Virus record (IMG/VR): IMGVR_UViG_2547132418_000023
Length of the DNA: 16,707 nt
Source: a virus
Taxonomy: Duplodnaviria; Heunggongvirae; Uroviricota; Caudoviricetes
Direction: 5' to 3' (one strand)
Made by a program: the position numbers and the translations under genes. This document shows positions 766 through 16,707 of the stretch, in pieces. Position 1 is the stretch's first letter. Each line of letters starts with the position of its first letter. The notes beneath the pieces were generated by a model. The model was not told where the DNA came from and ran no database searches. It saw nothing but the letters and a program-made list of their open reading frames with translations.

Positions 766-781
766 AGCCCGGCGTTATTTT
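754..781 (+). terminator. Rho-independent terminator for the nucleotidyltransferase gene, sitting between convergent genes
   Basis: Perfect 8-bp stem CGCCGGGC (754-761) / GCCCGGCG (767-774), 5-nt loop GTGAA, followed by TTATTTT. The stop codon lies in the loop. No U-tract in the minus orientation. Confidence 0.55.
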
Positions 782-1235
782 ACGGCTGATATTGCCAGCT
801 ACTGACTAAAGCGTACAAGTGGTTTGGGGAATAGCGCCAACTCTCCTTTAATTGCAGAAATTCGGCACAAAATTCGCTGCAAAACAGGCGTTCACGCTGT
901 TCTTTATTACCGGTAATAATTCCAAGCGCGCCGCGCCAATCATATTTTTTGCCATCATGTTTATGGAAAAACGCTTCCACGTCCTGAAGGCTGGCCTGGA
1001 GCGGCAGCATATCCCACTTATCCGCTGGCAATGGCATTATCTTTCCGCGTACACCGCGATCGCGCAGTGATGCAGAGTAACAAAGGTAACTCTTTTCACC
1101 ATGCTTAACGGCTAATTCACAGTGGGAATAACTACCGCGCGTGATTTTACGGGTAAGCCAGTCAGCCAGTCGGGCAATACCACGGTGCTCTGTTCGGCCC
1201 TTATAACAAGCGAGCCAGACAGTGGTTTTACTCAT
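780..1235 (-). CDS. Putative permuted papain-like amidase (YiiX/YaeF-like, NlpC/P60 superfamily), 151 aa, translationally coupled to the upstream fibre chaperone gene
   Basis: ATG at 1233-1235 overlaps the upstream stop (ATGA). Motifs YSHCE, GKKYDW and FCSEFC resemble the His-before-Cys arrangement I recall for YiiX-family proteins. Recalled from memory, not searched. Confidence 0.4.
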   Translation of the reverse strand: MSKTTVWLACYKGRTEHRGIARLADWLTRKITRGSYSHCELAVKHGEKSYLCYSASLRDRGVRGKIMPLPADKWDMLPLQASLQDVEAFFHKHDGKKYDWRGALGIITGNKEQRERLFCSEFCAEFLQLKESWRYSPNHLYALVSSWQYQP

Positions 1236-1846
1236 GCTTGCCAGCCTGTTGAATAATCGTAGTCGAGCACCGCCTGAATATCGTCCAGAGCTTCCACCGC
1301 CGCGATATGGTGCTGGGCATTGGCGAACAGGCGCATATCGTGATCCATTGTTACCGATTCAAACTGGGCGGCGATCTCGTTGGTTAACTCGATCAGACCG
1401 TTATTTTTAGTTTTCCACATTAACCCTGGAGGGATTTTTTTCTCCGCTCCCATTTTTGTGAGTGAGAGCTGTTGGATACGGCTGTTTGTATCACTGTGGA
1501 AGTGATGGTTGTTGATGATGATGTAATCGGTTGTGACGTAATCCCGTTTGGATTTTATTCTTCTTATTATATCCGCTTTTATTTCTGAAATAAATTTAAG
1601 CATTGAATCTGTATCAACTATCCATTCTCCTTTTTTTAGTTTGTGAAATCTATCTGGTGGTGGCGTAGAGATAAAGGATAAATCTTCACAGTTAATCCAA
1701 ATTGGGATATTAGCTTTCGCATATGTCTGCCATTGCTGATCAGTTATTTCAACTAAATGTTCTACTTTAGGATAGTTGTAGTGTTCTGTATCGATCCAGT
1801 CCAGAACGATAAATGTTTCAGGATCAAAACAAGCATATTTTGTCAT
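1232..1846 (-). CDS. Putative tail fibre assembly/chaperone protein, 204 aa
   Basis: ATG at 1844-1846, immediately downstream of the fibre gene. Its 5' half shares the low GC (about 25-40%) of the fibre tip. It lacks the C-terminal EWP motif I recall for lambda/P2 Tfa, so the call is mainly positional. Confidence 0.5.
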   Translation of the reverse strand: MTKYACFDPETFIVLDWIDTEHYNYPKVEHLVEITDQQWQTYAKANIPIWINCEDLSFISTPPPDRFHKLKKGEWIVDTDSMLKFISEIKADIIRRIKSKRDYVTTDYIIINNHHFHSDTNSRIQQLSLTKMGAEKKIPPGLMWKTKNNGLIELTNEIAAQFESVTMDHDMRLFANAQHHIAAVEALDDIQAVLDYDYSTGWQA

Positions 1847-1852
1847 TTTTAA

Positions 1853-3847
1853 TTACCATGATATTTTTACGAAGCCAGAGGCACCTTTTGTTCCGCTAGT
1901 ATTGCCTAAATTTGTTAACTCATTATTTTTATATTGAAAAGGAGGTAAATAAGATCCCCCAGCTCCTCCAGAACCATAACCTGTTGCTGCTGTTGGCTTT
2001 GCCATTACTGCTTTTTTTCCACCATTACTTAGGTTTTCTGTAATAACAGTACCTGAAGCCCCTCCCTTTCCATATATAGAATTTTCACCATTCTTTCCAG
2101 GATAAAATTCTGCAGATGACGGTATTGCATTTGGTGGAGTACCTTTAGGATCGTCACTGAATTTTATATAAGGCTGCGTAGTGTTAGAGTGATAAATGTT
2201 ATATCCTCCATGGCCACCTTTTGCAGTTAGATTAGAAAACGAAGAGTCTCCACCATCAAAGCTTTTTTGTGTTGTCTCTGTTTTATCATACGAATACTTT
2301 ATTTGTGAAACAGGTGGATTGTTCCAAAAAGGACCTCCATTACCTCCAGCTCCGATCTTTACTGAAAAATGCTGGCCTGGTGCCACGTTTAAGTAATCAA
2401 CAATCAATTCTCCTGCATTACCTCCGCAGGCTTCATAATGTGATGATTGTGCTCCTCCGGCCCCCCCACCTCCGCCGCCCATAATTTCCACAAATAATAT
2501 TGTTACGCCCTCAGGAACTATAAATGTTCCATTTGTAGTATAAAAACTAGTGTGGGTATGATTAGCTGGAGCTGCAGTTTTTGCCTTATCCATTGCCGCC
2601 TTCACCGCGCTCGGTGTCGCCGCCTCCGTCGTACTGTTGCTATCCGTCGCGTTATTAAGCTTCACAATCCCTTTTTGCGACAGGGTGCCGTCTGGAACAC
2701 CCGTAATCTGTCCCCATGGGTGAGTATGGTTTCCCGCAGCCTTACTATTCGCCAGGTCATATGCCGCCTTCACCGCGCTCGGTGTCGCCGCCTCCGTCGT
2801 ACTGTTGCTATCCGTCGCGTTATTAAGCTTCACAATCCCTTTTTGCGACAGGGTGCCGTCTGGAACACCCGTAATCTGTCCCCATGGGTGAGTATGGTTT
2901 CCCGCAGCCTTACTATTCGCCAGGTCATATGCCGCCTTCACCGCGCTCGGTGTCGCCGCCTCCGTCGTACTGTTGCTATTGGTCGCGTTATTAAGTTTCA
3001 CAATCCCTTTTTGTGTCAGGGTACCGTCAGGAATACTCGTAATCTGCCCCCAGGGGTGCGTATGACTACCCGCAGCCTTACTATTCGCCAGGTCATACGC
3101 CGCCTTCACTGCGCTCGGTGTCGCCGCCTCCGTCGTACTGTTGCTGTCTGTCGCGTTATTAAGCTTCACAATCCCTTTTTGTGTCAGCGTACCATCTGGT
3201 ATATCAGTAATCTGACTCCAGGTATGACGATGATTTCGAGCCTCAATCATTGCCGCTTTCACCGCTTTTGGCGTAGCCGCTTTGGTTTCGTCATCACTGT
3301 CAGTGGCGTTACTCAACTGTGTAAAGCCTTTTTGCGTTAACGTAGCATCAGGATGATTAGTCGAACGCTCATGTTCATCCAGTTGTGAATCAACATAATC
3401 CCGTGTTGCCAGTACAATACTGGGGTCAACGGTGAGTGTTACCGCAGTCGTGTTGGAAACTTCCATAATCAGGCGAATGCAAACTTGCTTACCGCTGCCG
3501 CCGGGTAATAGTGGTTTATACGACTCCGGGAATTTACCGATAGCAATGAGTTCACCATCGGTATCAAAAACGCCGACTTCACGTACATACCAGCCGCCGA
3601 TATTTTCGGGCAGCACGAGTTCCGCAATTAACCAGTTAGGGTTATTGGGTGCAACTGTTAATGTATTTAAATCACCGCGCCATACTTCATGGCGTAATTT
3701 AGTTTGGCTGACGGTGGGTTCATAATATTGTCCTCCGCTGTCACCAACAGCCATTTTTTGTAGATGAAGCTGTTTTTTATCCGCCAGAGCATTGGCAATT
3801 TTTGCCATTCCCCTGTCGGTGAGTAGAGTATAAAACTCATTGTCCAT
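1853..3847 (-). CDS. Tail fibre protein, 664 aa: P2 gpH-like N-terminal domain, 56-aa repeat shaft, glycine-rich C-terminal tip
   Basis: ATG at 3845-3847 with GGAG 6 nt upstream. The N-terminus (EVWRGDLN, IAELVLPENIGGW, ESYKPLLPGGSG, ATRDYVDSQLDEHE, HPDATLTQKGFTQLSNATDS, ATPKAVKAA) matches my recollection of P2 gpH. Repeats of HTHPWGQIT..PDGTL.QKGIVKLNNATDSNSTTEAATPSAVKAAYDLANSKAAG follow. C-terminus carries GGGGGGAGG, GAGGNGG, GGHGG, GSGGAGGS motifs. Confidence 0.9.
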   Translation of the reverse strand: MDNEFYTLLTDRGMAKIANALADKKQLHLQKMAVGDSGGQYYEPTVSQTKLRHEVWRGDLNTLTVAPNNPNWLIAELVLPENIGGWYVREVGVFDTDGELIAIGKFPESYKPLLPGGSGKQVCIRLIMEVSNTTAVTLTVDPSIVLATRDYVDSQLDEHERSTNHPDATLTQKGFTQLSNATDSDDETKAATPKAVKAAMIEARNHRHTWSQITDIPDGTLTQKGIVKLNNATDSNSTTEAATPSAVKAAYDLANSKAAGSHTHPWGQITSIPDGTLTQKGIVKLNNATNSNSTTEAATPSAVKAAYDLANSKAAGNHTHPWGQITGVPDGTLSQKGIVKLNNATDSNSTTEAATPSAVKAAYDLANSKAAGNHTHPWGQITGVPDGTLSQKGIVKLNNATDSNSTTEAATPSAVKAAMDKAKTAAPANHTHTSFYTTNGTFIVPEGVTILFVEIMGGGGGGAGGAQSSHYEACGGNAGELIVDYLNVAPGQHFSVKIGAGGNGGPFWNNPPVSQIKYSYDKTETTQKSFDGGDSSFSNLTAKGGHGGYNIYHSNTTQPYIKFSDDPKGTPPNAIPSSAEFYPGKNGENSIYGKGGASGTVITENLSNGGKKAVMAKPTAATGYGSGGAGGSYLPPFQYKNNELTNLGNTSGTKGASGFVKISW
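2594..3265. repeat. Tandem 168-bp direct repeats (4 copies, units starting 2594, 2762, 2930, 3098; degenerate 5th about 3251-3340) inside the fibre gene
   Basis: TGCCGCCTTCACCGCGCTCGGTGTCGCCGCCTCCGTCGTACTGTTGC recurs at an exact 168-bp period. Copies 1 and 2 are nearly identical, later copies progressively diverged. In-frame, encoding 56-aa repeats. Confidence 0.85.
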
Positions 3848-3849: not shown

Positions 3850-4482
3850 TTACTCCGGGTAAATAGATGTAATTTCAAGGCTCCATTGCCCTGTTCCGTA
3901 ATAAATCGATGTGTTGTGCTGTACTTCCCGTATCTGGAAAGGTAAAACCGTCGTCAGTTCACCACCATAAAGTGCACAGCCAATAACAGGAATAGCACTT
4001 TGGTTAATGATCCAGACGATTAATGCTTCCAGTTTTGAACGTGTGTTTTTATATTCATGAATGAGTTCTACCAAATCATTGAAAAGGTTTTCATCCAGGC
4101 CTTTATCCACCAGCGCTATATCCACCTTAAAAAAATAAGCCCTTCCCCCATATTCAAACCATTCTGAAATAGTTCCTGGTAATGAGAGTATTTCCAGCAC
4201 CCGCCGCACCGCCCAAATTGTTCCTTTATATTTATGCAGTTCAATGGCTTGTTTAATTAACTCGCGTTTCTCCCGCTCATCGGTGGTAAATAACCAACCT
4301 TCCAGCCCCTGAACGTGAAATTGTTCTGCAAGGGCTGGTAATGCCGAAGCATCAACCTGGTCGATCAGATAAACCATCAACGCCGTCAGATCGAGTTGGG
4401 CAAAACGCTCGGCGGCGATATTTGCCAGAATCGAAAAACGCTCATCGCTGGCAAGCGGCGGCGGTGGCAGCAATTTATCCAT
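3850..4482 (-). CDS. Baseplate/tail protein, P2 gpI-like, about 210 aa
   Basis: The ORF-track start at 4497 is TTG; in-frame ATG at 4480-4482 (MDKLLPPPP...) overlaps the gpJ stop by 8 nt. Positioned between gpJ and the fibre as in P2 J-I-H. Confidence 0.7.
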   Translation of the reverse strand: MDKLLPPPPLASDERFSILANIAAERFAQLDLTALMVYLIDQVDASALPALAEQFHVQGLEGWLFTTDEREKRELIKQAIELHKYKGTIWAVRRVLEILSLPGTISEWFEYGGRAYFFKVDIALVDKGLDENLFNDLVELIHEYKNTRSKLEALIVWIINQSAIPVIGCALYGGELTTVLPFQIREVQHNTSIYYGTGQWSLEITSIYPE

Positions 4483-5590
4483 CGCTGACTCCGGCAATCG
4501 TGACGTCTATTGCGGTGCATTCCGCCCACTCATGCGCCTGCAAAATACGTTTTGTAGGCATATTCAGCGCAACGTCATAGACGCCATCGACCTGTAACAC
4601 TTTGATTATCTGGTTTGGCACAATGTCCTGCCCCAGATGTTTCTGCCGCTGTTGCGTCCAGAGGCTAATCGCTTTACGCGCTGCAGCCAGCGTTGTCTCC
4701 TGATCGGCGGTGGTAAACAGCGTTAGCTGCGCACGGATCTCATATGGCACTCGAAGAGCGCATTTCGCACTCACTTTGTCGGTCAGCGGACGTTTTTTCT
4801 CCTTGCTAACCTCCTGTTCAATTTGCGCGAGCAGTTCTATTCCCGGCAGTCCGTTCAGAGTTAGCGGGTAGATCTCCACGCAGCCTTCTGGCAATCCCTC
4901 GTCCGGCCCCAGTACTGCAACGTCAATAATCGACTGGCTAACAGAAAGCGTATGAAAGCGGTAGGCACCATAGCTGCCCGCATTACTAAAGCTTTCTGGT
5001 GCCAGTTGGATACGCTGGCGCAATGCGTCATCGCTCTCTTCACCGCAGCCGCCCGTTGACGCAGTCAGGTTGGTTACGTTGATGTCATAATGACCAATCC
5101 TGTCGACCAGTGCGCTAATTTGTGCAGGCTGCCAGCCGTTACCCTGTTCACCTGCTGCGAGGCTGGTGGCAGGAACGGCGATATGCAAACTCCTGGCCGG
5201 AAGCAGAACATCTTCATCGGTGGCGAACATCACGCTATCAGAGGCACTGGCCCGCGTTCCCTGGGGAATCAGGATATTGCTGGTATACGCGCTGACGACC
5301 GAAAACTGCAACGTCGTTTTTGCCGGCTGCGCAGGCAAACGGTGAACGCCCACCAACTCCCCTAAATAATCCAGCATTGGCGCGCGGGAATACGCGACCA
5401 GGTTCTGTTTCGCCGCTTCCTGAATGGCGATGCGTACAAGGTTTTCACGATAGGCAAACAGGTCGATGAGCAACCGCTCAGCCTGTGCCGGATAGAGTTT
5501 TTTACCGCTGGCATCTTCGTATTGCGCAATCATCTCACTGGTAATTTGCGCAGGATCGCGGTCAATAAAATTGGGTTCGGCTATCGCCAT
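4475..5590 (-). CDS. Baseplate J-like protein (P2 gpJ / T4 gp6 family), 371 aa
   Basis: ATG at 5588-5590 with GGAGGGG Shine-Dalgarno. Size and position after the gpW-like gene; start overlaps the gpW stop by 10 nt. Confidence 0.8.
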   Translation of the reverse strand: MAIAEPNFIDRDPAQITSEMIAQYEDASGKKLYPAQAERLLIDLFAYRENLVRIAIQEAAKQNLVAYSRAPMLDYLGELVGVHRLPAQPAKTTLQFSVVSAYTSNILIPQGTRASASDSVMFATDEDVLLPARSLHIAVPATSLAAGEQGNGWQPAQISALVDRIGHYDINVTNLTASTGGCGEESDDALRQRIQLAPESFSNAGSYGAYRFHTLSVSQSIIDVAVLGPDEGLPEGCVEIYPLTLNGLPGIELLAQIEQEVSKEKKRPLTDKVSAKCALRVPYEIRAQLTLFTTADQETTLAAARKAISLWTQQRQKHLGQDIVPNQIIKVLQVDGVYDVALNMPTKRILQAHEWAECTAIDVTIAGVSDG

Positions 5591-5940
5591 AACCCCTCCG
5601 TTGAGTTGATAACGCCGTCAGCGGCGCGCCATTGCACACGTAACGTCAGATGTTCGCCGTCGATTACTGGTGTCACCTTCAGCAACCGACAGCGCGGCTC
5701 CCACTGGCGGATGGCTTCCACCGACTCCCGTACCACATGCGGAATTGCCCGCTCGATGGGGTAATCGATGTAGTGCCACAAGTTGCTGCCAAACAGCGGT
5801 CTGTGGGGATCACTGCCGCGCGGTGTGCGCAGAATGATGTGTATTGCCTGGTGAATATCATCCAGTCCGCAGACGTATTCTTCAGGCCGCTGCAAGGCCG
5901 GTTGCCAGTGCAGCGTTGAGGGTCGTGTTTTTGTGTTCAT
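5581..5940 (-). CDS. Baseplate wedge protein, gpW / T4 gp25 family, 119 aa
   Basis: ATG at 5938-5940. Motifs DDIHQAIHIILRTPRGS and IRQWEPRCRLLKVT align with P2 gpW (ILRTPVGS, LKWEPRV) as I recall it. Confidence 0.85.
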   Translation of the reverse strand: MNTKTRPSTLHWQPALQRPEEYVCGLDDIHQAIHIILRTPRGSDPHRPLFGSNLWHYIDYPIERAIPHVVRESVEAIRQWEPRCRLLKVTPVIDGEHLTLRVQWRAADGVINSTEGLWR

Positions 5941-5999
5941 GAGGGTATTTTCGCCCTGAACGGGCTGTGGCGATATTAAAGCGATTTAGAAAACTGATT

Positions 6000-6033
6000 G
6001 ATTAAAAAGAGAAAACCCGCCATCAGGCGGGTT
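6000..6033 (-). terminator. Intrinsic terminator inside the tail operon, between the spike and gpW genes
   Basis: Perfect 8-bp stem AACCCGCC (6014-6021) / GGCGGGTT (6026-6033), loop ATCA. In mRNA sense it is followed by UUUUCUCUUUUUAAU, just downstream of the spike stop. Confidence 0.55.
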
Positions 6034-6038: not shown

Positions 6039-6740
6039 TCAGTGTGTATGGTGGTTGGAGTTGCCACCGCTGTCCTGCAATGCGCCGCTGGCCTGAACGT
6101 TGCCGATCACGTTGACATTGCCAGTTATCGTGGCGGCGTTACCGATGCCTCCACTTCCTGCCATCCCGCCAAGCCAGGTGAGTTTTTTCATTACCGTGAC
6201 ATTGCCAGTAAAGGTGCTCATGGGCGCATCTACCGTCACTGCTGCCGCTTTAACATCGACCTTAGTGGCGTCGATGCTGACATCGGTCGCTTTAATATCG
6301 ACGGTATCGGAAGTCACGGTGACCTGTTGGGCTTTAATCTCAACGTTGGGTGATGTCAGGCGGGTACTGTCGATAACCTCAATCACGATTTTCTCGATAC
6401 CGCCGTTAATCGTCAGCTGGTGGGTGCTGCGGTCATATTCAAACGCTGCGCCATCAGAAAACTGGACGTAACGTTTATCGCGCGAGGCCACAGGCGCGGT
6501 GTCAACCGTAGAATAAACTGCGCCCAGCACCACGCCATCTTCACCGTTATTGTCCAGCAGAACTTCCACTTGCTCGCCCATATCCGGTAGCCAGTAGTCT
6601 TTATTGTCCTGGGAATTGCGTTGAAGTACCGCAAGCCAGTTGCTCTTCAGATTGTCACACTCCGGAAGCGTGACTCGCACCCGAACGCTGGTTTCGTCAA
6701 TATCGCTGATAATCCCCGTTTGACGGGTTACTCCTTTCAT
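6039..6740 (-). CDS. Baseplate central spike, P2 gpV-like, 233 aa
   Basis: ATG at 6738-6740 with AAGGAGG Shine-Dalgarno. N-terminal OB-like region, then beta-helix-like repeats (VTVTSDTVDIKATDVSIDATKVDVKAAAVTVDA). C-terminus ends NSNHHTH, an HxH apex motif of the kind that binds metal in P2-type spikes. Confidence 0.8.
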   Translation of the reverse strand: MKGVTRQTGIISDIDETSVRVRVTLPECDNLKSNWLAVLQRNSQDNKDYWLPDMGEQVEVLLDNNGEDGVVLGAVYSTVDTAPVASRDKRYVQFSDGAAFEYDRSTHQLTINGGIEKIVIEVIDSTRLTSPNVEIKAQQVTVTSDTVDIKATDVSIDATKVDVKAAAVTVDAPMSTFTGNVTVMKKLTWLGGMAGSGGIGNAATITGNVNVIGNVQASGALQDSGGNSNHHTH

Positions 6741-7790: not shown

Positions 7791-7987
7791 GGTGGGATCT
7801 CCGATAAGGTTTTATTGACGGAAATGACCGGAATAATGAGCTGAATACCGGAAGGCAGTACCGGGTAAATGGCGACATGTGGATTGGCGACGATTATGCG
7901 TTCATAAGCCAGCGCATCACCGTAGTAATGCCATGCCAGATTATCCCAGCGTTCGCCGTCGGTGGTGATATGTTCAAGGTATCGCAT
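7778..7987 (-). CDS. Tail protein X (P2 gpX-like, LysM-like), about 69 aa
   Basis: The ORF-track start at 7990 is GTG; ATG at 7985-7987 overlaps the upstream stop (TGATG). Motif WDNLAWHYYGD...ANPHV...LPSGIQLIIP resembles P2 gpX. Confidence 0.75.
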   Translation of the reverse strand: MRYLEHITTDGERWDNLAWHYYGDALAYERIIVANPHVAIYPVLPSGIQLIIPVISVNKTLSEIPPWLR

Positions 7988-11416: not shown

Positions 11417-11822
11417 TCAGGTCTGGGAGCCATATTCGATCTTTATTTGGTCGCTGGCTTCATCCAGCCAGTTGCTAAAGTCATCTATGGTGAGCGCGTC
11501 TATCTCACTGGGTGGAAAGCGAAACCATCTCGCCAGTAGCGCCATTGCCTGCCATAGCTGGGGAGGATTCTGTAACCACGGTAAGCATGGATTGAAATCG
11601 TTTCTGCAATGCCTGGTAATCCAGCAAATCCATTTCAGCTAAATCTTCTGGCACCAGTCCGGTCATCGCCGCCATTAGCGGTTCATCCCACTCTTCGGGT
11701 TTTTCGCTGATCCGGCGCGCGTTGCGCATATCTTTTACTTTCAGGCGACGTAATTGCAGCGAGTCGATAGTATTTCCTGCTGCCGACGTAAATGGGAACT
11801 GTAAGATATAATGCTCTTTCAT
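11417..11822 (-). CDS. Putative frameshift-extended chaperone (E+E'-like) produced by a +1/-2 shift near the 3' end of the chaperone gene
   Basis: The +1 frame is open from 11638 to a TGA at 11417-11419 and encodes protein-like sequence past the chaperone stop (...WFRFPPSEIDALTIDDFSNWLDEASDQIKIEYGSQT). The -1 frame stops after 8 codons. Slip site not identified. Confidence 0.4.
11505..11822 (-). CDS. Tail assembly chaperone (P2 gpE-like), 105 aa
   Basis: ATG at 11820-11822 with AAGGA Shine-Dalgarno. Position between tube and tape measure. DLAEMDLLDYQALQKRF resembles the gpE family. Confidence 0.75.
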   Translation of the reverse strand: MKEHYILQFPFTSAAGNTIDSLQLRRLKVKDMRNARRISEKPEEWDEPLMAAMTGLVPEDLAEMDLLDYQALQKRFQSMLTVVTESSPAMAGNGATGEMVSLSTQ

Positions 11823-11872: not shown

Positions 11873-12397
11873 TTAGCCACCGATGTTATTGCGATAGGTA
11901 CTTAATTGATCCACGCCGTTAACCCGAAAAATATTCGCCATATAATCAAGTTCAAGCAGCGTTTCACCATCGACCACTTGTTTAATATAAGTACAACCAA
12001 AGGCGCTGCTGAATTCCGGGTTTTCATTCTGTTTAAATGTGCCCAAGGGATTCTTTTTAAACATCACGGTTAAATGTGTCACTAACGCTAATTGATTCGC
12101 TTTCCCCTGGGAGTTATAGCAATCAATACTGGAGCGGCACTGTAATGCTACTGCCTGCCACGGGTTTGCCGTTTTACGCATTACGTCCTGATAAAAGGAG
12201 TTCCATTTAATTTCCCCCTCCAGTTTATCGAAACCAGCCGGGAGTTCGATTTTACCGACCATACCCAGTGCTTTATGCTCTTGCATAATTAAACTGACAT
12301 CCGGCAATTTAATTTCGGTTGCACGACCTAAAAGATTATTACCATCGAGATAAATATTGGCGTTGGTAATACGGTTAATTTGAATTTTTCCAGCCAT
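11873..12397 (-). CDS. Tail tube protein (P2 FII-like), 174 aa
   Basis: ATG at 12395-12397 overlaps the sheath stop (TAATG). C-terminus CTYIKQVVDGETLLELDYMANIFRVNGVDQLSTYRNNIGG closely matches P2 FII as I recall it. Confidence 0.85.
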   Translation of the reverse strand: MAGKIQINRITNANIYLDGNNLLGRATEIKLPDVSLIMQEHKALGMVGKIELPAGFDKLEGEIKWNSFYQDVMRKTANPWQAVALQCRSSIDCYNSQGKANQLALVTHLTVMFKKNPLGTFKQNENPEFSSAFGCTYIKQVVDGETLLELDYMANIFRVNGVDQLSTYRNNIGG

Positions 12398-13821
12398 TAG
12401 CTATTGCTCTCCAGAGAGACTAAATATTCAGAAGTAATTTCAGTTTCAAACGTCAGACGTTCCAGCGGCGGCGGCGGGGTGAATTTATAGCTAAGCAATA
12501 AATGCCCGGCGCTGAGTTCAGCCGGTGAATTTCGCGCCGGATCGTACCAGCACTCAAAGCCAAGCAGTGCGCCGTCGGCAATCAGTTTTCGGCCCCAGGT
12601 ATTTACCGATTCGGTCAGCGCGTCAATAAGAGCCTGATTAATCGGCATATCAATATACTGCTGACTGAAATAACGGATTGACTCATTAATTACATCGCCT
12701 GTCCGGCGAACGTTTTCAAAGTTACGCATATGGGTCACGGTAGGCCATGCCGCTGTGCGGTTGCCCCACAAGCGCAGACCAGAACCGTAACTATTGAAAA
12801 TAGTGGTAATGCCGTTTTCGTTGAGCTGATTCACTTCGCTTTGTGGATCATCAATCATTGCAGAAAGCGAACGTTCAATACCGGTAATACCCTGAATTTC
12901 CTGGTTTGAGTTGCTCCACCAGAAACCTTTTTCGAGGTCTACTTTGGCACGTAGCCCGGCAGCGCGCGAAGAGAGTGGTTCGAGAACTTCCTGGTTAGTG
13001 ATGCCATCGTAAACTTTGACGTGTGGGTAACATAAACGCACACGATCAGAGCTGGTATTGAAGTTGATAGCCCCTTGCGAACCGCGTCCAGCCAATACCT
13101 GCTGGAATGTCGTCCCAATCGGAGCATCAATGTAGGTAAGCGCACCGAGTTTTTCCGCTTGTGCAATCAGCTCAGTAGTTACTGATTTTTGCGTACAAAA
13201 CACGGGAGCAAGCAGGATTTTGGCGTAGAAACCGTACAGGTTATAGGTGTCCTGAAGGAGTTTCATCCCCGTGCGGTCGCCTGCGGTATTTACGGCACCG
13301 ATAATATCGGCTGCGGTGACCTTTGTAGGGTCGCACCAGGAATAATAGGCGCAAACTTTCGCACCAGGAGGAATGTCGGCTCCTTTACGGGTAATTATGC
13401 CTGTTTGTTCATCTACGCTAAATGCTGCGGTGTTAAAGGTTGATGAATTTGATGAAGAGGGCTTTAGTACCACGTTACGCACATTGCGGTGAGCGAGCTT
13501 CGCCTGGTTGTTAGCGTCAAAAGTGATACTCTCATTGCTGATGTTGGAGCCATGTTTTGCCGGATCCAGCACGTTAATCACCACCACCGTACCGGCACCG
13601 TGGTCATAAATCGCCTTCAGTGCCTGTGGGATCGTAAAGTTAGCCTGAGTCGAGCCAAACTGCGCAGCATCGCTTTCAGAAAGGCATAATGTTGGTTTAT
13701 TTACCGGACCGCAGGGGGCCGTACCGATTAAAGCGATGACGGCGGATTTTACCGCTTTAACCGGACGCGGGCCGGTTTCAATTTCAATGGTTTCTACACC
13801 GTGCAGGTAATTAGCTGCCAT
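12397..13821 (-). CDS. Tail sheath protein (P2 FI-like), about 474 aa
   Basis: The ORF-track start at 13827 is TTG; ATG at 13819-13821 is preceded by GAGGA. C-terminal region (LRLWGNRTAAWP..., ECWYDP..., LSYKFTPPPPLERLTFE) matches sheath proteins. Confidence 0.9.
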   Translation of the reverse strand: MAANYLHGVETIEIETGPRPVKAVKSAVIALIGTAPCGPVNKPTLCLSESDAAQFGSTQANFTIPQALKAIYDHGAGTVVVINVLDPAKHGSNISNESITFDANNQAKLAHRNVRNVVLKPSSSNSSTFNTAAFSVDEQTGIITRKGADIPPGAKVCAYYSWCDPTKVTAADIIGAVNTAGDRTGMKLLQDTYNLYGFYAKILLAPVFCTQKSVTTELIAQAEKLGALTYIDAPIGTTFQQVLAGRGSQGAINFNTSSDRVRLCYPHVKVYDGITNQEVLEPLSSRAAGLRAKVDLEKGFWWSNSNQEIQGITGIERSLSAMIDDPQSEVNQLNENGITTIFNSYGSGLRLWGNRTAAWPTVTHMRNFENVRRTGDVINESIRYFSQQYIDMPINQALIDALTESVNTWGRKLIADGALLGFECWYDPARNSPAELSAGHLLLSYKFTPPPPLERLTFETEITSEYLVSLESNS

Positions 13822-14008
13822 GTACAATTTCCTCTACGTTATTTTGTTCTTCCTGAGTGATGACAGGAGTCAGATGATTGCGGGCAATCATGGTCATGAC
13901 CCACTCGTTGTCTTCTGGCAGATCAATTTCACTGTTCGGCCACAATAAGATTTCTTGTCCATCGGCAAGGGTGACGCCGCTTGCCGGGCCGTTGTAGATG
14001 TATTTCAT
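13811..14008 (-). CDS. Small conserved tail-module protein (Mu gp38-like), 65 aa
   Basis: ATG at 14006-14008 overlaps the upstream stop (ATGA). Position directly before the sheath, as in Mu-like phages. Family assignment from memory. Confidence 0.4.
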   Translation of the reverse strand: MKYIYNGPASGVTLADGQEILLWPNSEIDLPEDNEWVMTMIARNHLTPVITQEEQNNVEEIVHGS

Positions 14009-14460
14009 TCAGTTTCCTCGTAGTTAACTTCCGTAAGCAGGGGAAGATCCGTGCTTTCCTGTTCAGCGATAAACAGCGAGCTGGTCGCCATTTCCAGGAT
14101 GTAGCGGCAGAAACCGCCGCTCTCACCCGTATTAATTTCTTTTTCAAGCCAAAGCAGACGATCGCAATCAGGAAGCTGAAGGCCGCCCAATGCGCTGCGT
14201 ATGCAATCAAGTGCGTTTAACGCGTCACAATTTTTGTCAACAATAACGGTGGCGGTTAAGCGGAGTATTTGCTGTTGCACGATGGCATCACTGCTTTCGG
14301 GTGTGGTAAAGACAGAACCGCTATAATTAATAATCACTGCAACTTGTTGTGTCTGTGGAATATATTTCTGGGCATCCGTAGATGAAATAAATATATCCAT
14401 TTCAGGATGCCGATCACGTAATTTGACCATGACATAATTCATTGCAGATAAAATTTTCAT
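14005..14460 (-). CDS. Putative tail completion/terminator protein (Mu gp37-like), 151 aa
   Basis: ATG at 14458-14460. First gene of the tail operon after the terminator. VAVIINYSGSVF-type motif. Family assignment from memory. Confidence 0.45.
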   Translation of the reverse strand: MKILSAMNYVMVKLRDRHPEMDIFISSTDAQKYIPQTQQVAVIINYSGSVFTTPESSDAIVQQQILRLTATVIVDKNCDALNALDCIRSALGGLQLPDCDRLLWLEKEINTGESGGFCRYILEMATSSLFIAEQESTDLPLLTEVNYEETE

Positions 14461-14564
14461 ATGAGGTGTACCTTAATTACCGCTCACTTCGTTATCGTTG
14501 AGATGTATTATGAAGCAGTGAAGGTGAAGAATCTTTTAATGTGATTTAGAGAAAAAATTGAATG

Positions 14565-14601
14565 GCTATAAAAAATCCCCACACTTACGTAAAGGTGGGG
14601 A
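14565..14601 (-). terminator. Intrinsic terminator separating the lysis cassette from the tail operon
   Basis: 7-bp stem TCCCCAC (14576-14582) / GTGGGGA (14595-14601) with a partly self-complementary loop. In mRNA sense followed by UUUUUUAUAGCC, just after the 14607 stop. Confidence 0.5.
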
Positions 14602-14606: not shown

Positions 14607-14921
14607 TTAATAACTGCCACGTTGTAACAGCTCGATTTTGCTATATAAGGCATCCAGCTTTGCTTCTAATACTGCTTGCCCACGAAGATAATCTTCTCTG
14701 CGGACATAATGCAGCGGAAGCTCGGCACGAAATTCAAGAAACTCTCTTTCCAGTTTCGACCAACTTGTTTCTGATTCCCTGCGGGCATTTTCCAGAGACT
14801 CAAAACGCTCATTAAGTCGTTTTTCAATTTGCGCTAACAGCAGTTTTCCGGCAGCAAACATTAATCCAACGAAGGAAAGCATAAGGGAGATCACTTCCCA
14901 AAAATCGATACTGAGTTTCAT
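14607..14921 (-). CDS. Membrane-anchored coiled-coil protein, possible lysis accessory (i-spanin-like), 104 aa
   Basis: ATG at 14919-14921 with GAGGGG Shine-Dalgarno. N-terminal hydrophobic helix (VISLMLSFVGLMFAAGKLLLA) then charged heptad-like sequence. Last gene of the lysis cassette. Confidence 0.5.
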   Translation of the reverse strand: MKLSIDFWEVISLMLSFVGLMFAAGKLLLAQIEKRLNERFESLENARRESETSWSKLEREFLEFRAELPLHYVRREDYLRGQAVLEAKLDALYSKIELLQRGSY

Positions 14922-14933
14922 CGGCCCCTCTGA

Positions 14934-15539
14934 TTAGTGAAGACAGCTTGCCTGTCCCCAGAGTAAATAGCGGGCAGCGTGTTGATAGAGAATCATCTTT
15001 GGATAGCGACGATTTTCTCGCCAGTTCGCGGCGCTGCGCCCGGCGTTGACTTGCTCGACATGACCAAACCAGCGAGTGGCATCTAACCCTTTGGATGCAG
15101 CCAGTTTTTTATCCCGGTTAACCCACCCCTGACCGCCGTTATAGGCGCTTAGGGTAAACGCCATACGCTGACAGTCATTTTGCGCAGAGATGTTTTTCCA
15201 CAAATGCTGGTCATATTGCACCAGCGCGCGAATCGCCCAGGTTGGGTTATACGGTTTGTTTTCACGCAATTGTGGATACAACTGGCTTATCCATGTCGCA
15301 GTAGCAGGCATAAATTGCGCCATACCTTGTGCGCCAACGGGGGAACGTACCATTGGCTGCCAGGCGGACTCCTGGTGTAATTGCCCGGCAAAGTCGGCCA
15401 CTGGGGCATTCAGCCCCCAGACTTCTCGAGCTGTACGAATTAGTTCGTTTCGCCATGCCAGAGAGGCTCGCGGCGGTTCAGAGGCGTTAAGCGGGAAAAG
15501 AACGAAAATAATCATAGACGCGATATATTTCAGCCACAT
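14934..15539 (-). CDS. Endolysin candidate: lytic transglycosylase (SLT-like) with N-terminal signal/SAR sequence, about 201 aa
   Basis: The ORF-track start at 15617 is TTG; ATG at 15537-15539 (MWLKYIASMIIFVLFPLNAS...) lies 2 nt after the holin-like stop with AGGG upstream. HQESAWQP has the catalytic Glu-Ser context; GAQGMAQFMP and AYNGG are SLT-like. Confidence 0.7.
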   Translation of the reverse strand: MWLKYIASMIIFVLFPLNASEPPRASLAWRNELIRTAREVWGLNAPVADFAGQLHQESAWQPMVRSPVGAQGMAQFMPATATWISQLYPQLRENKPYNPTWAIRALVQYDQHLWKNISAQNDCQRMAFTLSAYNGGQGWVNRDKKLAASKGLDATRWFGHVEQVNAGRSAANWRENRRYPKMILYQHAARYLLWGQASCLH

Positions 15540-15541
15540 CA

Positions 15542-15829
15542 CTATAGCCCTAAGGCGACGGAAAGACAGACGGCGGCAACGATGATGGCGCGGCGAATCA
15601 TTGCCGCCGCGCAGCAACGCGGTTCCTTCCAGGGGCTAAAAGAGTCAGGCCGTGCCCAGGGGAACAAACTGCGATCGAGCCAGTATCCCAGAACCGCGGA
15701 AAGCGAAACCAGGCTTAGTTTATAAATGACGACCGGGATCTGTGCTGAAGAGGTCCAGCCGATCACGACAAACAGCGCGACGGAAGCGACCAGCCAGCCG
15801 GAAAGCCGGGGAAAAGTGACTTTTTTCAT
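15542..15829 (-). CDS. Holin-like small membrane protein, 95 aa
   Basis: ATG at 15827-15829 with AGGAG 7 nt upstream. Two to three predicted TM helices (WLVASVALFVVIGW, LSLVSLSAVLGYWL, AIIVAAVCLSVALGL). Immediately precedes the endolysin. Confidence 0.55.
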   Translation of the reverse strand: MKKVTFPRLSGWLVASVALFVVIGWTSSAQIPVVIYKLSLVSLSAVLGYWLDRSLFPWARPDSFSPWKEPRCCAAAMIRRAIIVAAVCLSVALGL

Positions 15830-16125
15830 ACGATATCTCCTGATAAGTGAGCGTTTAGTGTCGTCAGAACCCGCCAGTGAAGAATGAAAAAAGCTTTAAT
15901 AAATAAGTTTAAAAAATAGATTCTCTATAAATGAACATGCCCGCTAATAAATCGACTCAGCAATTAAAGAGCAAACGGTGACCTGGCGAATAAGCGCGTC
16001 ATTATGCAGGGAAAAGATGATGGTGGATCGTAGGAATAGTCGATAGTTATTTGATTTTTAAAGTTTGTTTAAGAAAGTCAGCGACTGTGAGGGAAACGAT
16101 CTTTTTACACTACAGGTAAAAATAA

Positions 16126-16145
16126 TACTGTATGTGCATACAGTA
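16126..16145. promoter_or_regulatory. LexA (SOS) box
   Basis: TACTGTATGTGCATACAGTA is a 20-bp palindrome with CTGT-N8-ACAG, one mismatch from the E. coli recA operator as I recall it (TACTGTATGAGCATACAGTA). It lies in the divergent control region. Confidence 0.7.
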
Positions 16146-16166
16146 TCGTGTAAAATGATACTCCTG

Positions 16167-16197
16167 TTGACAAGAAACATAACACAAACAATATATT
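16167..16197 (+). promoter_or_regulatory. Candidate sigma70 promoter for the Mor/C-like gene
   Basis: Perfect -35 TTGACA (16167-16172) and TATATT (16192-16197), but with a long 19-bp spacer. About 170 nt upstream of the ATG. Confidence 0.35.
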
Positions 16198-16365
16198 TAT
16201 TTAGTGAATTTATGCGTACATTAATATTAAGAATTTATATTTCTGGTGATTGTTTATTTGTTTGTTGAATGTATTGAGTAGCAGTAATGACAACTGCTTA
16301 GCGTATATCCGTGGTTTTACACGCATCGGGTCTTATTCAGGATGCAAGATATATGGAGATGAAAA

Positions 16366-16707
16366 ATGATACGAAAATCAAAAGAGATGGCCCGGACACC
16401 GGAGATCATTAACGACCTGGCTTTTCATGCATCGCAAGTTCTGATTGAAAGCATCAATCTCGACAGTTCATCGGCAGAAAATGTGGGTTTTGCCATTGCC
16501 GACCGAATGATGCGTAACTGGGGCGGACAAAGCATTTATTTCCCTAAGGGGATCTCCGGACGAGCATCGGAGCGTGACTACCAAATCTATAGCGAGTGCG
16601 ATGGGCGCAACTACGCCGAATTAGCGAAGAAATATAATCTGACGCTGCAATGGATTTATAAGATAGTCAAACGTGTACATACGGAGAAGCAGCAGAGTCG
16701 TATGTAG
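16366..16707 (+). CDS. Mor/C-family transcriptional activator (Mu middle/late activator-like), 113 aa
   Basis: ATG at 16366 with GGAG upstream, TAG at 16705-16707. GGQSIYFPKG...DYQIYSECDGRNYAELAKKYNLTLQWIYKIVKR parallels Mu Mor (GGGQVYIPRG...DLRIWNDFNGRNVSELTTRYGVTFNTVYKAIRR). Confidence 0.8.
   Translation: MIRKSKEMARTPEIINDLAFHASQVLIESINLDSSSAENVGFAIADRMMRNWGGQSIYFPKGISGRASERDYQIYSECDGRNYAELAKKYNLTLQWIYKIVKRVHTEKQQSRM

What the first reader, a model, noticed from the sequence alone, without database searches (positions are those of the whole stretch)
780..16707. Headless contractile-tail plus lysis locus with its own activator: candidate R-type tailocin
About 15 kb on one strand encodes every part needed for a contractile tail (terminator-like protein, sheath, tube, chaperone, tape measure, gpU, gpX, gpD hub, gpV spike, gpW, gpJ, gpI, fibre, fibre chaperone), preceded directly by holin, endolysin and a lysis accessory gene. 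There is no capsid, portal, protease, terminase, integrase or transposase ORF in the window. The order T-U-X-D with X between U and D matches tailocin/phiCTX-type clusters rather than P2 itself, while the gp37/gp38-like and Mor-like genes are Mu-like, so this is a hybrid. A divergent Mor/C-type activator and an SOS box supply a plausible DNA-damage induction circuit, the hallmark of phage-tail bacteriocins.
Basis: partly seen in the sequence, partly recalled or inferred. Interest (0 to 1): 0.85.

Follow-up and report, generated by a model that had tools for sequence, protein, structure and literature searches.

The report
SOS-wired headless phage-tail (tailocin) locus
This stretch of an E. coli chromosome carries every gene for a contractile phage tail and for bursting the cell but none for a phage head; selection has kept it since before E. 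coli and Salmonella split, so it is most likely a DNA-damage-triggered killing particle (tailocin) of a known type, untested in these bacteria.

Summary
Window 780-16707 carries 20 intact genes: holin, SLT endolysin, a membrane protein, tail terminator, sheath, tube, chaperone, tape measure, U, X, D, V, W, J, I, fibre, two fibre-accessory genes, and a divergent Mor-family activator.

In complete E. coli genomes the cluster lies between yjbD and lysC. There is no head, terminase, transposase or integrase gene within 16 kb on either side.

It is not a P2/Mu hybrid. It is the normal late region of a BcepMu-like transposable phage that has lost its head module, Rz/Rz1 and all early genes except Mor.

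Orthologues with the same architecture next to lysC occur in Salmonella (STM4198-4219, the "Def4 remnant"), E. albertii, Citrobacter, Enterobacter, Superficieibacter and Phytobacter. Between E. coli and Salmonella, dN/dS is 0.04-0.26 and dS matches the flanking core genes.

A near-consensus LexA box sits between holin and Mor and is conserved in seven of eight taxa. Three family-wide late-promoter motifs precede three terminator-bounded operons.

The closest proven relative is carotovoricin of Pectobacterium, which appears to be an independent head loss from the same phage family.

Function is untested, and six of nine E. coli carriers examined have inactivating lesions. Verdict: a new member of a known kind, of moderate interest.

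The parts
16366..16707 (+). Mor/C-family late transcriptional activator (113 aa), divergent from the lysis operon; lysC begins 60 bp after its stop
   Evidence: Pfam Mor E=2e-37. PHROG 'late transcriptional activator'. PDB Mu Mor 1RR7 E=7e-8. 90% aa identity to Salmonella STM4219.
16126..16145 (.). LexA (SOS) box TACTGTATGTGCATACAGTA
   Evidence: 0 of 200 shuffles match. 1 mismatch to the sequence upstream of K-12 recA. Conserved in Salmonella, E. albertii, Citrobacter, Superficieibacter x2 and Phytobacter. Absent from 79+ BcepMu-like phage and carotovoricin loci.
16148..16157 (.). Invariant GTGTAAAATG next to the LexA box. It is either a -10 (TAAAAT) for a plus-strand promoter towards Mor, or a -35 (TTTACA) for a minus-strand promoter whose -10 (TACAGT) lies inside the box.
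   Evidence: Five-taxon alignment A2. The consensus scan finds the minus-strand version at 16154..16127. The strand is not resolved.
15895..15917 (-). Candidate activator site of the lysis-operon late promoter (minus strand ATTTTTTAAACTTATTTATTAAAG). A conserved GAYACT -10-like hexamer lies 33 nt downstream at 15857-15862.
   Evidence: Invariant 23-nt island in an otherwise diverged spacer. It matches the motif TYTAAA-N-WTTAAW, which is found only 3 times in the window against 0.17 expected.
15542..15829 (-). Holin (95 aa)
   Evidence: Pfam Holin_2-3 E=4e-27. PHROG holin. dN/dS 0.08.
14934..15539 (-). SLT-type lytic transglycosylase endolysin (201 aa from the RefSeq start) with an N-terminal hydrophobic export signal
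   Evidence: Pfam SLT E=1e-14. Sequence. Homologue of BcepMu gp22.
14607..14921 (-). 104-aa protein with an N-terminal transmembrane segment and a coiled coil; BcepMu gp25 homologue; lysis accessory of unknown role
   Evidence: Translation. PHROG 462. 90% identical to the Salmonella orthologue, dN/dS 0.05.
14570..14600 (-). Intrinsic terminator ending the lysis operon
   Evidence: Hairpin of -18.3 kcal/mol, z=-4.7, followed by a U-run. Compensatory stem changes across five taxa.
14507..14550 (-). Second late promoter: motif TCTAAATCACATTAAAAG (14550-14533), then 20 nt, then -10 CATAAT (14512-14507)
   Evidence: ATTAAAAG and nAnAAT are invariant in five taxa. The same motif sits in the G-protease gap of complete BcepMu-like phages, including BcepMu, and upstream of gp37 in carotovoricin loci.
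14005..14460 (-). Gp37-family protein, probable tail terminator
   Evidence: Pfam Gp37 E=1e-32. PDB 2GJV E=9.5e-54 over residues 1-150, six chains in the entry. The terminator role and the identification of 2GJV as the Salmonella STM4215 orthologue rest on my own knowledge of the literature comparing it with lambda gpU.
13811..14008 (-). 65-aa BcepMu gp38 homologue, function unknown
   Evidence: PHROG 895 E=3.5e-35. Same length in all orthologues.
12397..13821 (-). Tail sheath
   Evidence: Pfam sheath domains. 71-74% identical to BcepMu, PhiKM and KP12. The nearest solved structure is the R2 pyocin sheath, E=3e-45.
11873..12397 (-). Tail tube
   Evidence: Pfam Phage_tube E=4e-56. dN/dS 0.04.
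11417..11822 (-). Tail assembly chaperone (11505-11822) plus an overlapping 42-codon ORF in another frame (11417-11545)
   Evidence: Pfam Phage_TAC_7. The overlapping ORF is and is called as a gene in Enterobacter. The frameshift mechanism was not resolved.
8940..11315 (-). Tape measure protein (791 aa)
   Evidence: Pfam PhageMin_Tail. Intact here, but carries independent nonsense mutations in CE10 and 2016C-3878.
7987..8940 (-). GpU-like protein with a C-terminal coiled coil (317 aa)
   Evidence: Pfam Phage_P2_GpU E=2e-33. Full-length PHROG 788. The length is typical of the family: BcepMu gp45 is 296 aa.
7778..7987 (-). Tail protein X
   Evidence: Pfam Phage_tail_X E=7e-23.
6750..7790 (-). 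GpD-like baseplate hub
   Evidence: Pfam Phage_GPD. 346 aa in all orthologues.
6039..6740 (-). GpV-like spike
   Evidence: Pfam Phage_base_V.
5973..6033 (-). Terminator (6033-6004) followed by the third late-promoter motif TCTAAATCGCTTTAATAT (5990-5973) in the V-W gap
   Evidence: Terminator scan, 8-pair stem. The motif CTTTAATAT is conserved in the V-W gap of all BcepMu-like phages, carotovoricin loci and orthologues.
5581..5940 (-). GpW/gp25 baseplate wedge
   Evidence: Pfam GPW_gp25. 96% identical to the Salmonella orthologue.
4475..5590 (-). GpJ baseplate protein
   Evidence: Pfam Baseplate_J E=2e-62.
3850..4482 (-). GpI baseplate protein
   Evidence: Pfam Tail_P2_I E=1e-33.
1853..3847 (-). 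Tail fibre (664 aa): conserved N-terminal collar domain, five fibre repeats, divergent low-GC C-terminal domain
   Evidence: Pfam Phage_tail_fib, Phage_fiber_2 x5 and Gly_rich_2. GC drops to 0.38. Length varies from 526 to 664 aa among E. coli carriers. No close phage match to the C-terminal domain.
1232..1846 (-). DUF4376 protein, probable tail-fibre assembly protein
   Evidence: Pfam DUF4376. PHROG tail fibre/tail protein. Orthologues also hit Caudo_TAP_N and Caudo_TAP.
780..1235 (-). 151-aa last gene of the operon, function unknown (second fibre accessory?)
   Evidence: No Pfam hit. PHROG 1128. 76% identical to STM4198, dN/dS 0.06.

Best explanation
The locus is a domesticated, immobile remnant of a BcepMu-like transposable myovirus. 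It keeps only what is needed to build and release contractile tails, so it is an R-type tailocin locus.

Proposed mechanism:
1. DNA damage activates RecA and LexA cleaves itself. (Inferred.)
2. The promoter overlapping the LexA box at 16126-16145 is derepressed and Mor is made. (Inferred. The box is shown; its target strand is not.)
3. Mor activates three activator-type late promoters that share one motif, upstream of holin, gp37 and W. (Inferred from motif conservation.)
4. These promoters express three terminator-bounded operons: lysis (holin, SLT, 104-aa protein); tail-1 (terminator, sheath, tube, chaperone, tape measure, U, X, D, V); and tail-2 (W, J, I, fibre, two accessory genes). (Gene content and terminators are shown.)
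5. Tails assemble without heads. The holin and the exported SLT endolysin lyse the producer. (Inferred.)
6. Released particles bind related bacteria through the variable fibre tip, contract and kill by depolarising the membrane. (Inferred by homology to carotovoricin and R-pyocins.)
For: Headless and immobile. The flanks are core genes, and no head, terminase, transposase or integrase gene lies within 16 kb. K-12 has the empty site.

Origin. Sheath is 71-74% identical to Bcepmuvirus phages, with the same gene order. Exactly the head block, Rz/Rz1 and the early region are missing.

Selection. All 20 genes are intact in both E. coli and Salmonella. dN/dS is 0.04-0.26. dS is 0.6-2.9, against 0.7-2.0 for the seven flanking core genes (lysC 1.21, pgi 0.72, rluF 1.61, yjbG 2.01).

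Same architecture next to lysC. It occurs in Salmonella, E. albertii, C. freundii, E. cancerogenus, two Superficieibacter species and Phytobacter, with identical gene lengths.

Proven relative. The carotovoricin locus of Pectobacterium, flanked by a TolC-like gene as described in PMC13195805, is a headless cluster of the same phage family with 75% sheath identity.

Regulation. The LexA box has 0 chance matches, is 1 mismatch from the recA box, is conserved in 7 of 8 taxa, and is found in none of the other BcepMu-like loci. The three late-promoter motifs against 0.17 expected all lie on the coding strand in the three gaps, and the motif is shared with complete phages. Two of the three operon-ending terminators were checked by folding, covariation or consensus scan; the hairpin at 753-775 is a scan hit only.

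Fibre. The tip is low in GC and varies in length, as expected for a specificity determinant.
Against: No experiment shows particles, induction or killing for this locus in E. coli or Salmonella in the papers I could search. The Salmonella orthologue is filed only as prophage remnant Def4 (PMC5322425).

No spanin (Rz/Rz1) gene was found.

Only 197 of 5426 complete E. coli genomes carry the cluster. Six of nine carriers examined have independent lesions: tape-measure nonsense mutations at codons 75 and 509, IS1 in DUF4376, IS1 in tube, a broken fibre gene, and a near-total deletion. Selection in E. coli is therefore weak or episodic now.

The strand served by the LexA-box promoter is unresolved. 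E. cancerogenus lacks the box.

The motif statistics are partly post hoc. dS values above 1 are saturated and rough.
Confidence: 0.65

Rival explanations
1. This is a decaying prophage remnant with no present function in E. coli. The tail and lysis genes look intact in this strain only because decay has not yet reached them.
For: The Salmonella orthologue is catalogued as a defective remnant. Six of nine E. coli carriers examined have independent inactivating lesions. The cluster is absent from 96% of complete E. coli genomes.
Against: At dS of about 1-2, an unselected 15-kb cluster could not keep 20 open reading frames with dN/dS of 0.04-0.26 and identical gene lengths in eight taxa. Regulatory islands, terminators and promoter motifs are conserved within diverged spacers.
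Confidence: 0.15
2. The element is a domesticated tail-plus-lysis machine kept for a purpose other than killing competitors. Possibilities are SOS-triggered altruistic lysis that releases DNA, vesicles or other cell contents, or particles that act on phages or host cells.
For: Selection evidence shows function but not which function. The lysis operon has its own promoter and terminator. The Salmonella copy carries O-antigen-modifying gtrABC inside the cluster.
Against: All baseplate, spike and fibre genes are as conserved as the lysis genes, and the fibre tip diversifies like a receptor-binding protein. There are no toxin or effector cargo genes and no eCIS-type ATPase. The nearest characterised relatives are bacteriocins.
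Confidence: 0.12
3. The cluster is a tail-donor module. Its tails are used by heads of a co-resident BcepMu-like phage or satellite rather than acting alone.
For: Gp37/gp38 neck-proximal genes are retained. Complete BcepMu-like phages infect E. coli, for example PhiKM.
Against: The head-tail adaptor genes (BcepMu gp31 and gp36 homologues) are deleted. The cluster is fixed at one chromosomal site in many genera regardless of prophage content. No such partner was seen near the locus.
Confidence: 0.03

Closest known systems
Carotovoricin Er (Ctv) of Pectobacterium, an R-type tailocin
   Same: It derives from the same phage family. The cluster is headless, with a Holin_2-3 holin, an SLT endolysin and a gp25-like protein, then a terminator, the late-promoter motif, gp37, gp38, sheath and so on in the same order. 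Sheath is 75-76% identical. The fibre locus is variable (PMC13195805).
   Different: Its chromosomal site is different (tolC_2/ybiB versus yjbD/lysC). It keeps Rz and gp26. It has no adjacent Mor gene and no LexA box within 10 kb. It falls in a separate clade nested among complete phages in the five-protein tree, so head loss was probably independent (NJ tree without bootstrap).
Burkholderia phage BcepMu and relatives (Bcepmuvirus; E. coli phage PhiKM, Klebsiella phage KP12)
   Same: The order and families of all lysis and tail genes match. They have a Mor/C-family late activator. The late-promoter motifs ATTAAAAG and CTTTAATAT sit at the same gaps.
   Different: The phages also have transposase, repressor, terminase, portal, protease, capsid, adaptor and Rz/Rz1 genes. 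Their Mor gene is the last gene of a long early operon, not a stand-alone gene behind a LexA box.
Salmonella Typhimurium STM4198-STM4219 ('Def4' prophage remnant)
   Same: It is the orthologue. It has the same lysC junction, the same genes, the same LexA box and promoter motifs, and 60-96% amino-acid identity.
   Different: It carries gtrABC inserted in the V-W gap, and different cargo lies to the left of the cluster. In the literature I could search it is described only as a defective prophage.
R-type pyocins of Pseudomonas aeruginosa
   Same: It is a headless contractile tail with holin and endolysin that is SOS-inducible. It has the T-U-X-D order. Its sheath is the nearest solved structure (E=3e-45).
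   Different: It derives from P2/phiCTX. The baseplate and fibre genes precede sheath and tube. It is regulated by PrtR/PrtN rather than LexA/Mor (own knowledge). Sequence similarity to the window is limited to the C-terminal two-thirds of the sheath (query residues 167-469 of 474).
BceTMilo tailocin of Burkholderia cenocepacia
   Same: It is a defective prophage that lost its head genes, and its induction by UV depends on RecA (PMC5411513).
   Different: It is P2/KL3-like. It keeps a CI-like repressor, Ogr and an integrase region. It is unrelated to BcepMu.
Phage Mu Mor/C late-gene cascade
   Same: The activator family is the same. Several late operons have activator-dependent promoters that lack a -35 element.
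   Different: Only one activator gene is present, not the two-step Mor then C cascade. Entry is through host LexA, not the phage repressor. The binding site is inferred, not known.

Membership tests
R-type tailocin (phage-tail-like bacteriocin) | Complete gene set for a contractile tail (sheath, tube, tape measure, hub/spike, wedge, fibre, terminator) | tested here: met
   Pfam and PHROG assignments for every gene. One-to-one with BcepMu gp37-gp52.
R-type tailocin (phage-tail-like bacteriocin) | No head, DNA-packaging, replication/transposition or integration genes in the element | tested here: met
   Flanks are lysC/pgi on one side and NTase/slipin/yjbD on the other. No tblastn hits to BcepMu head or transposase proteins in the orthologous loci.
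R-type tailocin (phage-tail-like bacteriocin) | Own lysis cassette for release | tested here: met
   Holin, SLT endolysin and an accessory protein form a separate operon. No spanin was found.
R-type tailocin (phage-tail-like bacteriocin) | Maintained by selection in the host lineage rather than decaying | tested here: met
   dN/dS is 0.04-0.26 for E. coli versus Salmonella, and all genes are intact in eight taxa. However, 6 of 9 E. coli carriers are broken.
R-type tailocin (phage-tail-like bacteriocin) | Produces headless particles on induction | not testable with these tools
   Needs mitomycin C or UV induction and electron microscopy.
R-type tailocin (phage-tail-like bacteriocin) | Particles kill related bacteria | not testable with these tools
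   Needs spot or killing assays with sheath and fibre deletion controls.
Carotovoricin (orthologue of the Pectobacterium ctv locus) | Same chromosomal locus and the same domestication event | tested here: not met
   The flanks differ. The deletion end-points differ: ctv keeps Rz and gp26. The clades are separate.
BcepMu-like (Bcepmuvirus) late region | Synteny and high identity of lysis and tail genes to BcepMu-type phages | tested here: met
   Sheath is 71-74% identical. The gene order is identical. Promoter motifs are shared.
   The top phage hits are all Bcepmuvirus. P2-like (Peduovirus) records appear only among the low-identity matches, 548 of 566 records being below 60% identity. The regulator is Mor, not Ogr.
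SOS (LexA) regulon member | LexA operator overlapping a promoter | tested here: met
   A 20-bp palindrome lies at 16126-16145. It overlaps promoter-like hexamers on both strands. It is conserved in 7 of 8 taxa.
SOS (LexA) regulon member | LexA binding and DNA-damage induction | not testable with these tools
   Needs EMSA or ChIP, and expression after DNA damage in lexA(Ind-) and recA backgrounds.
Mor/C transcription activator family | Sequence membership | tested here: met
   Pfam PF08765 at 127.8 bits against a cut-off of 24.9. PDB hits to Mu Mor and C.
Mor/C transcription activator family | Activates promoters that lack a -35 element through an upstream site | tested here: inconclusive
   Three conserved motifs lie upstream of -10-like hexamers with no conserved -35. 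Binding was not tested.

The most novel reading that the evidence does not exclude
The most novel reading not excluded is an anciently domesticated tailocin. It would have been inherited at the lysC junction across much of the Enterobacteriaceae (Escherichia, Salmonella, Citrobacter, Enterobacter, Superficieibacter, Phytobacter) since before these genera split. The phage's repressor and early operon would have been replaced by direct host LexA control of a single Mor-family activator, which fires three late promoters. The element would have arisen independently of carotovoricin from the same BcepMu-like phage family. That would make it a widespread, so far unrecognised natural weapon of Salmonella and some E. 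coli, with a regulatory design not described for other tailocins.
Probability: 0.4. Interest if true: 0.65.

Novelty: new member of a known kind. Interest (0 to 1): 0.5.

Why it matters
Natural R-type tailocins are well studied in Pseudomonas, Pectobacterium and Burkholderia but hardly at all in E. coli and Salmonella, where engineered pyocins are being developed as precision antibacterials.

An endogenous, conserved tailocin would matter for three reasons.
- In Salmonella it may be close to ubiquitous: the source for Def4 says it is in all complete Typhimurium genomes. It could therefore bear on strain competition in the gut.
- It would offer native scaffolds for retargeted killing particles.
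- It would be a clean example of a host rewiring a transposable phage's late genes to its own SOS repressor.

The independent lesions in E. coli also make the locus a natural system for studying when such weapons are kept or lost.

Tried and rejected
- **P2/phiCTX-Mu hybrid origin.** Rejected. BcepMu-type phages have this whole architecture natively.
- **Identity with the published 'ST131 tailocin'.** Rejected. That is the tail of a complete P2-like prophage.
- **Identity with BceTMilo.** Rejected. It is P2/KL3-like.
- **Orthology with carotovoricin.** Rejected. The site, deletion end-points and clade all differ.
- **Spanin search.** No Rz or Rz1-like lipoprotein ORF was found between SLT and gp37. 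The 104-aa protein is the gp25 homologue, not Rz.
- **tRNA, att sites and Rfam families in the window.** None found.
- **PADLOC on the neighbouring slipin and NTase genes.** No hit.
- **Receptor prediction from the fibre tip.** No close phage homologue.
- **Programmed frameshift of the chaperone.** The overlapping 42-codon ORF is in the +1 frame, not the -1 frame. This was left unresolved.
- **Strand of the LexA-controlled promoter.** It cannot be decided from sequence.
- **Literature.** Ten full-text searches found no paper that calls this locus a tailocin in E. coli or Salmonella. Two papers that might have borne on this, Frye 2005 and Bobay 2014, are not held. Earlier description in subscription journals therefore cannot be excluded.

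Full report
**What is in the window.**
The long ORFs from 780 to 15829 all lie on the minus strand. Pfam assigns them, in transcription order:
- holin (Holin_2-3)
- SLT lytic transglycosylase
- a 104-aa protein with no family
- Gp37
- a 65-aa protein
- sheath, tube and a TAC_7 chaperone
- tape measure
- GpU, tail protein X, GPD hub and Phage_base_V spike
- GPW/gp25, Baseplate_J and Tail_P2_I
- a fibre with a collar N-terminus and five fibre repeats
- a DUF4376 protein and a 151-aa protein

A Mor-family gene lies on the plus strand at 16366-16707 and runs to the window end. PHROGs agrees: Mor is a late transcriptional activator, and the 317-aa GpU-like protein is a full-length member of a tail family. 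Gp37 matches PDB 2GJV (a six-chain entry, which from my own knowledge is the Salmonella STM4215 orthologue) at E=9.5e-54. Its role as tail terminator rests on my knowledge of the literature, not on a test here.

**Is it headless?**
The window is 99.8% identical to many complete E. coli chromosomes. In strain G3X16-2, Mor is followed 60 bp later by lysC, then pgi and yjbE-H. On the other side are a nucleotidyltransferase gene, a slipin gene, yjbD and rluF. There is no head, terminase, integrase or transposase gene within 16 kb.

K-12 has yjbD directly next to lysC. Alignment shows an 18-kb island replacing 121 bp of the K-12 spacer, with the right junction exactly at the lysC stop codon.

**What it derives from.**
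The closest phages by sheath protein are all Bcepmuvirus, at 71-74% identity: BcepMu, phiE255, Klebsiella KP12 and Escherichia PhiKM. BcepMu's annotated genome has, in this order:
- a Mor/C gene at the far left
- an early operon with transposase and repressor
- holin, SLT endolysin, Rz/Rz1, gp25 and gp26
- the head genes from terminase to gp36
- gp37, gp38, sheath, tube, chaperones and tape measure
- a 296-aa GpU-like protein, then X, D, V, W, J, I and H

PhiKM has the same order. The window is this late region minus the head block, Rz/Rz1 and gp26, and minus everything early except Mor. The "P2-like tail plus Mu-like extras" is the family's normal make-up, not a new hybrid. T-U-X-D is its native order.

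**Orthologues and selection.**
A Salmonella Infantis contig carries the same cluster at the same yjbD-lysC site. Its annotation cross-references the genes to LT2 STM4198-STM4219, and gtrABC is inserted between W and V. By position and gtr content this is the "Def4" prophage remnant, which its source says is present in all complete Typhimurium genomes (PMC5322425).

All 20 genes are intact in both species. dN/dS is 0.04-0.26. dS is 0.6-2.9, against 0.7-2.0 for the seven flanking core genes (lysC 1.21, pgi 0.72, rluF 1.61, yjbH 1.20, yjbG 2.01). For two genes, fibre and Mor, dS was saturated and no ratio was obtained.

The same headless architecture occurs in two Superficieibacter species and Phytobacter, and in Citrobacter freundii, Enterobacter cancerogenus and Escherichia albertii. 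It is Mor, holin, SLT, 104-aa protein, Gp37, 65-aa protein, sheath and onward. Gene lengths are identical throughout. In all but E. cancerogenus the cluster sits directly against lysC; there a transporter gene and yjbD lie between lysC and Mor.

Sheath clusters at 78-98% identity are also named from Lelliottia, Dryocola and many Salmonella serovars, and always generically.

An unselected remnant could not stay open in 20 genes at this divergence. The element is old, about as diverged as its flanks, and under purifying selection. By general knowledge the E. coli-Salmonella split is of the order of 100 million years old.

**Relation to a proven tailocin.**
A scan of one genome per species with the sheath protein returned 78 loci. 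I classified them by tblastn with window and BcepMu proteins. Many are complete BcepMu-like prophages.

Seven loci (six Pectobacterium and Samsonia) are headless: holin, SLT, Rz (not detected in one of the seven), gp25-like, gp26, gp37 and onward. The Pectobacterium locus directly follows a serralysin export operon ending in a TolC-like gene. This matches the tolC_2 boundary given for carotovoricin (PMC13195805). Carotovoricin is thus a BcepMu-type tailocin and the closest characterised relative.

In a neighbour-joining tree of sheath, tube, D, J and W, the lysC-linked elements form one clade outside all other Enterobacterales members. Carotovoricin is a separate clade among complete phages. 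This suggests independent head losses, but the tree has no bootstrap support. Brenneria and Lonsdalea have further headless versions that still carry transposase genes.

**Regulation.**
The 536-bp holin-Mor spacer contains TACTGTATGTGCATACAGTA at 16126-16145. This 20-mer has no chance match in 200 shuffles. It differs at one position from the box upstream of K-12 recA; that the recA sequence is the LexA operator is established knowledge.

In a five-taxon alignment the spacer is largely diverged. Three elements stand out:
- the LexA box plus an adjacent invariant GTGTAAAATG
- a 23-nt AT-rich island at 15895-15917
- the two ribosome-binding sites

The box is also present in E. albertii and C. 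freundii but not in E. cancerogenus. It is absent from every other BcepMu-like locus fetched. It is therefore a feature of this domesticated lineage.

The hexamers fit either of two promoters:
- a plus-strand promoter towards Mor, with -10 TAAAAT and the box over the -35 region
- a minus-strand promoter towards the lysis operon, with TTTACA, 16 nt, then TACAGT inside the box

Sequence cannot decide between them. Because Mor is the only regulator present, I infer that LexA controls Mor.

**Three late operons.**
After the 104-aa gene there is a hairpin of -18.3 kcal/mol (z=-4.7) followed by a U-run. Its stem shows compensatory changes across taxa. It is followed by an invariant ATTAAAAG about 20 nt upstream of a conserved nAnAAT, ahead of gp37.

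The same motif, TTTTTCTAAAGCAGATTAAAAG, lies in the gap between the G-like gene and the protease gene of complete BcepMu-like phages, including BcepMu. That is the position of Mu's P_I promoter, from my own knowledge. The motif also lies upstream of gp37 in carotovoricin loci.

The V-W gap holds another terminator and the related motif TCTAAATCGCTTTAATAT. Its core, CTTTAATAT, is conserved family-wide.

The pattern TYTAAA-N(4-7)-WTTAAW occurs three times in the window, against 0.17 expected. All three are on the coding strand, one in each of the three gaps. This test is partly post hoc.

Sigma-70 consensus promoters are under-represented: 11 found against 21.5 expected. This fits activator-dependent operons: lysis, tail-1 (gp37 to V) and tail-2 (W to the last gene).

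**Lysis.**
The SLT enzyme starts with a hydrophobic export signal. The 104-aa protein has a transmembrane segment and a coiled coil and is the gp25 homologue. No spanin was found. How the outer membrane is breached is open.

**Specificity.**
The fibre's N-terminus is conserved. Its C-terminal half, the DUF4376 gene and the last gene have low GC. The fibre (60% amino-acid identity) and the DUF4376 protein (52%) are the most diverged parts between genera; the last gene is 76% identical. Fibre length varies among E. coli carriers between 526 and 664 aa. The fibre tip has no close match among phages. Orthologues of the DUF4376 protein hit tail-fibre-assembly families.

**Caveats from the E. coli population.**
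Only 197 of 5426 complete genomes carry the tube-to-holin segment, at 95-100% identity. About 1430 others have only the slipin and NTase genes; in the one such genome inspected a zeta-toxin gene follows them.

Nine carriers were examined. Three are intact: the window, G3X16-2 and A10. Six are broken:
- CE10: tape-measure stop at codon 75, plus ISEc53/ClbS inserted between holin and Mor with loss of the LexA box
- 2016C-3878: tape-measure stop at codon 509
- IMT16316: IS1 at DUF4376
- ws5-3: broken fibre gene
- 02B17CRGN002: IS1 in tube
- GTEN_24: only SLT and holin remain

The lesions are independent, so present-day selection in E. coli is weak or episodic. The copy in this window is intact.

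**Prior knowledge.**
In the searchable library no paper describes this locus as a tailocin. The "ST131 tailocin" is a complete P2-like prophage. BceTMilo is P2-like. A Salmonella T6SS survey merely set aside unnamed "tailocin/phage loci". Two papers that might have borne on this are not held.

**Verdict.**
This is a real, well-delimited, headless BcepMu-type tail-plus-lysis locus with a LexA box and a Mor activator. It is most likely an SOS-inducible R-type tailocin (confidence 0.65). It is a new member of a known kind and a relative of carotovoricin, and it is of moderate rather than high surprise.

Noticed in passing
window 1-765 (+) and L001 14841-16765: A slipin/SPFH gene and a nucleotidyltransferase-domain gene form a pair at the yjbD-lysC spot in about 1630 of 5426 E. 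coli genomes. In the one non-carrier genome inspected, a zeta-toxin family gene follows them instead of the tail cluster. There is no PADLOC hit. The site looks like a variable hotspot.
   Followed up: partly
L003 11785-15110 (Salmonella orthologue): The O-antigen glucosylation genes gtrABC are inserted in the V-W gap of the Salmonella cluster, bracketed on both sides by the same ~35-nt REP-like sequence. O-antigen modification sitting inside a putative tailocin locus could relate to self-protection.
   Followed up: no
window 5938-5957 and the V-W gaps of L007-L038: A short hairpin lies immediately before the W start codon and is conserved across the whole phage family. It reads GGGGGC-GATACT-GCCCCC-ATG in phages and carotovoricin loci, and AGGGCGAAAATACCCTCATG here. 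It might control translation, or it might be the -10 region.
   Followed up: no
window ~16253-16290: A moderately conserved block (ATGAATGTATTG and its surroundings) lies about 90 nt upstream of Mor in five taxa. It is not explained by the LexA box and may be a second promoter or another regulator's site.
   Followed up: no
L006 19296-21053 (E. coli CE10): An ISL3-family ISEc53 and a ClbS/DfsB-family gene are inserted between holin and Mor, removing the LexA box. The same strain has a nonsense codon in the tape measure gene.
   Followed up: partly
window 8940-11315 in other strains (L006, L087): Two different nonsense mutations in the tape measure gene (codon 75 in CE10, codon 509 in 2016C-3878) show repeated independent inactivation of the same gene.
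   Followed up: yes
phage collection records OR845313, OR845696, OR851066, OR850896, OR851449: Short unannotated contigs deposited as 'Escherichia phage ECO95' and 'Salmonella phage S.Kent' are fragments of this chromosomal cluster type, at 72-97% protein and 75-80% DNA identity. They are not phage genomes.
   Followed up: no
window 11417-11545 (-): A 42-codon ORF overlaps the end of the chaperone gene in the +1 frame. It is called as a gene in Enterobacter and matches the position of BcepMu gp42. The usual -1 frameshift geometry does not fit.
   Followed up: partly
window 753-775: A strong 9-bp GC-rich hairpin lies between the convergent nucleotidyltransferase gene and the last tail-operon gene. 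It is a likely bidirectional terminator.
   Followed up: no
G-protease gaps of complete BcepMu-like prophages (L012-L038, L005): A palindromic block, CCTTTATAAAGGCTTTACAG, is conserved in the gap upstream of the late-promoter motif in complete phages. It is absent from the headless lysC-linked elements.
   Followed up: no
L010, L011, L024-L026 (Brenneria, Lonsdalea): These are further headless BcepMu-like clusters that still carry transposase genes (plus the repressor and Mor in Brenneria). Their deletion end-points differ; for example, the protease start codon is fused to gp37 in B. alni. They look like intermediate stages of tailocin formation.
   Followed up: partly
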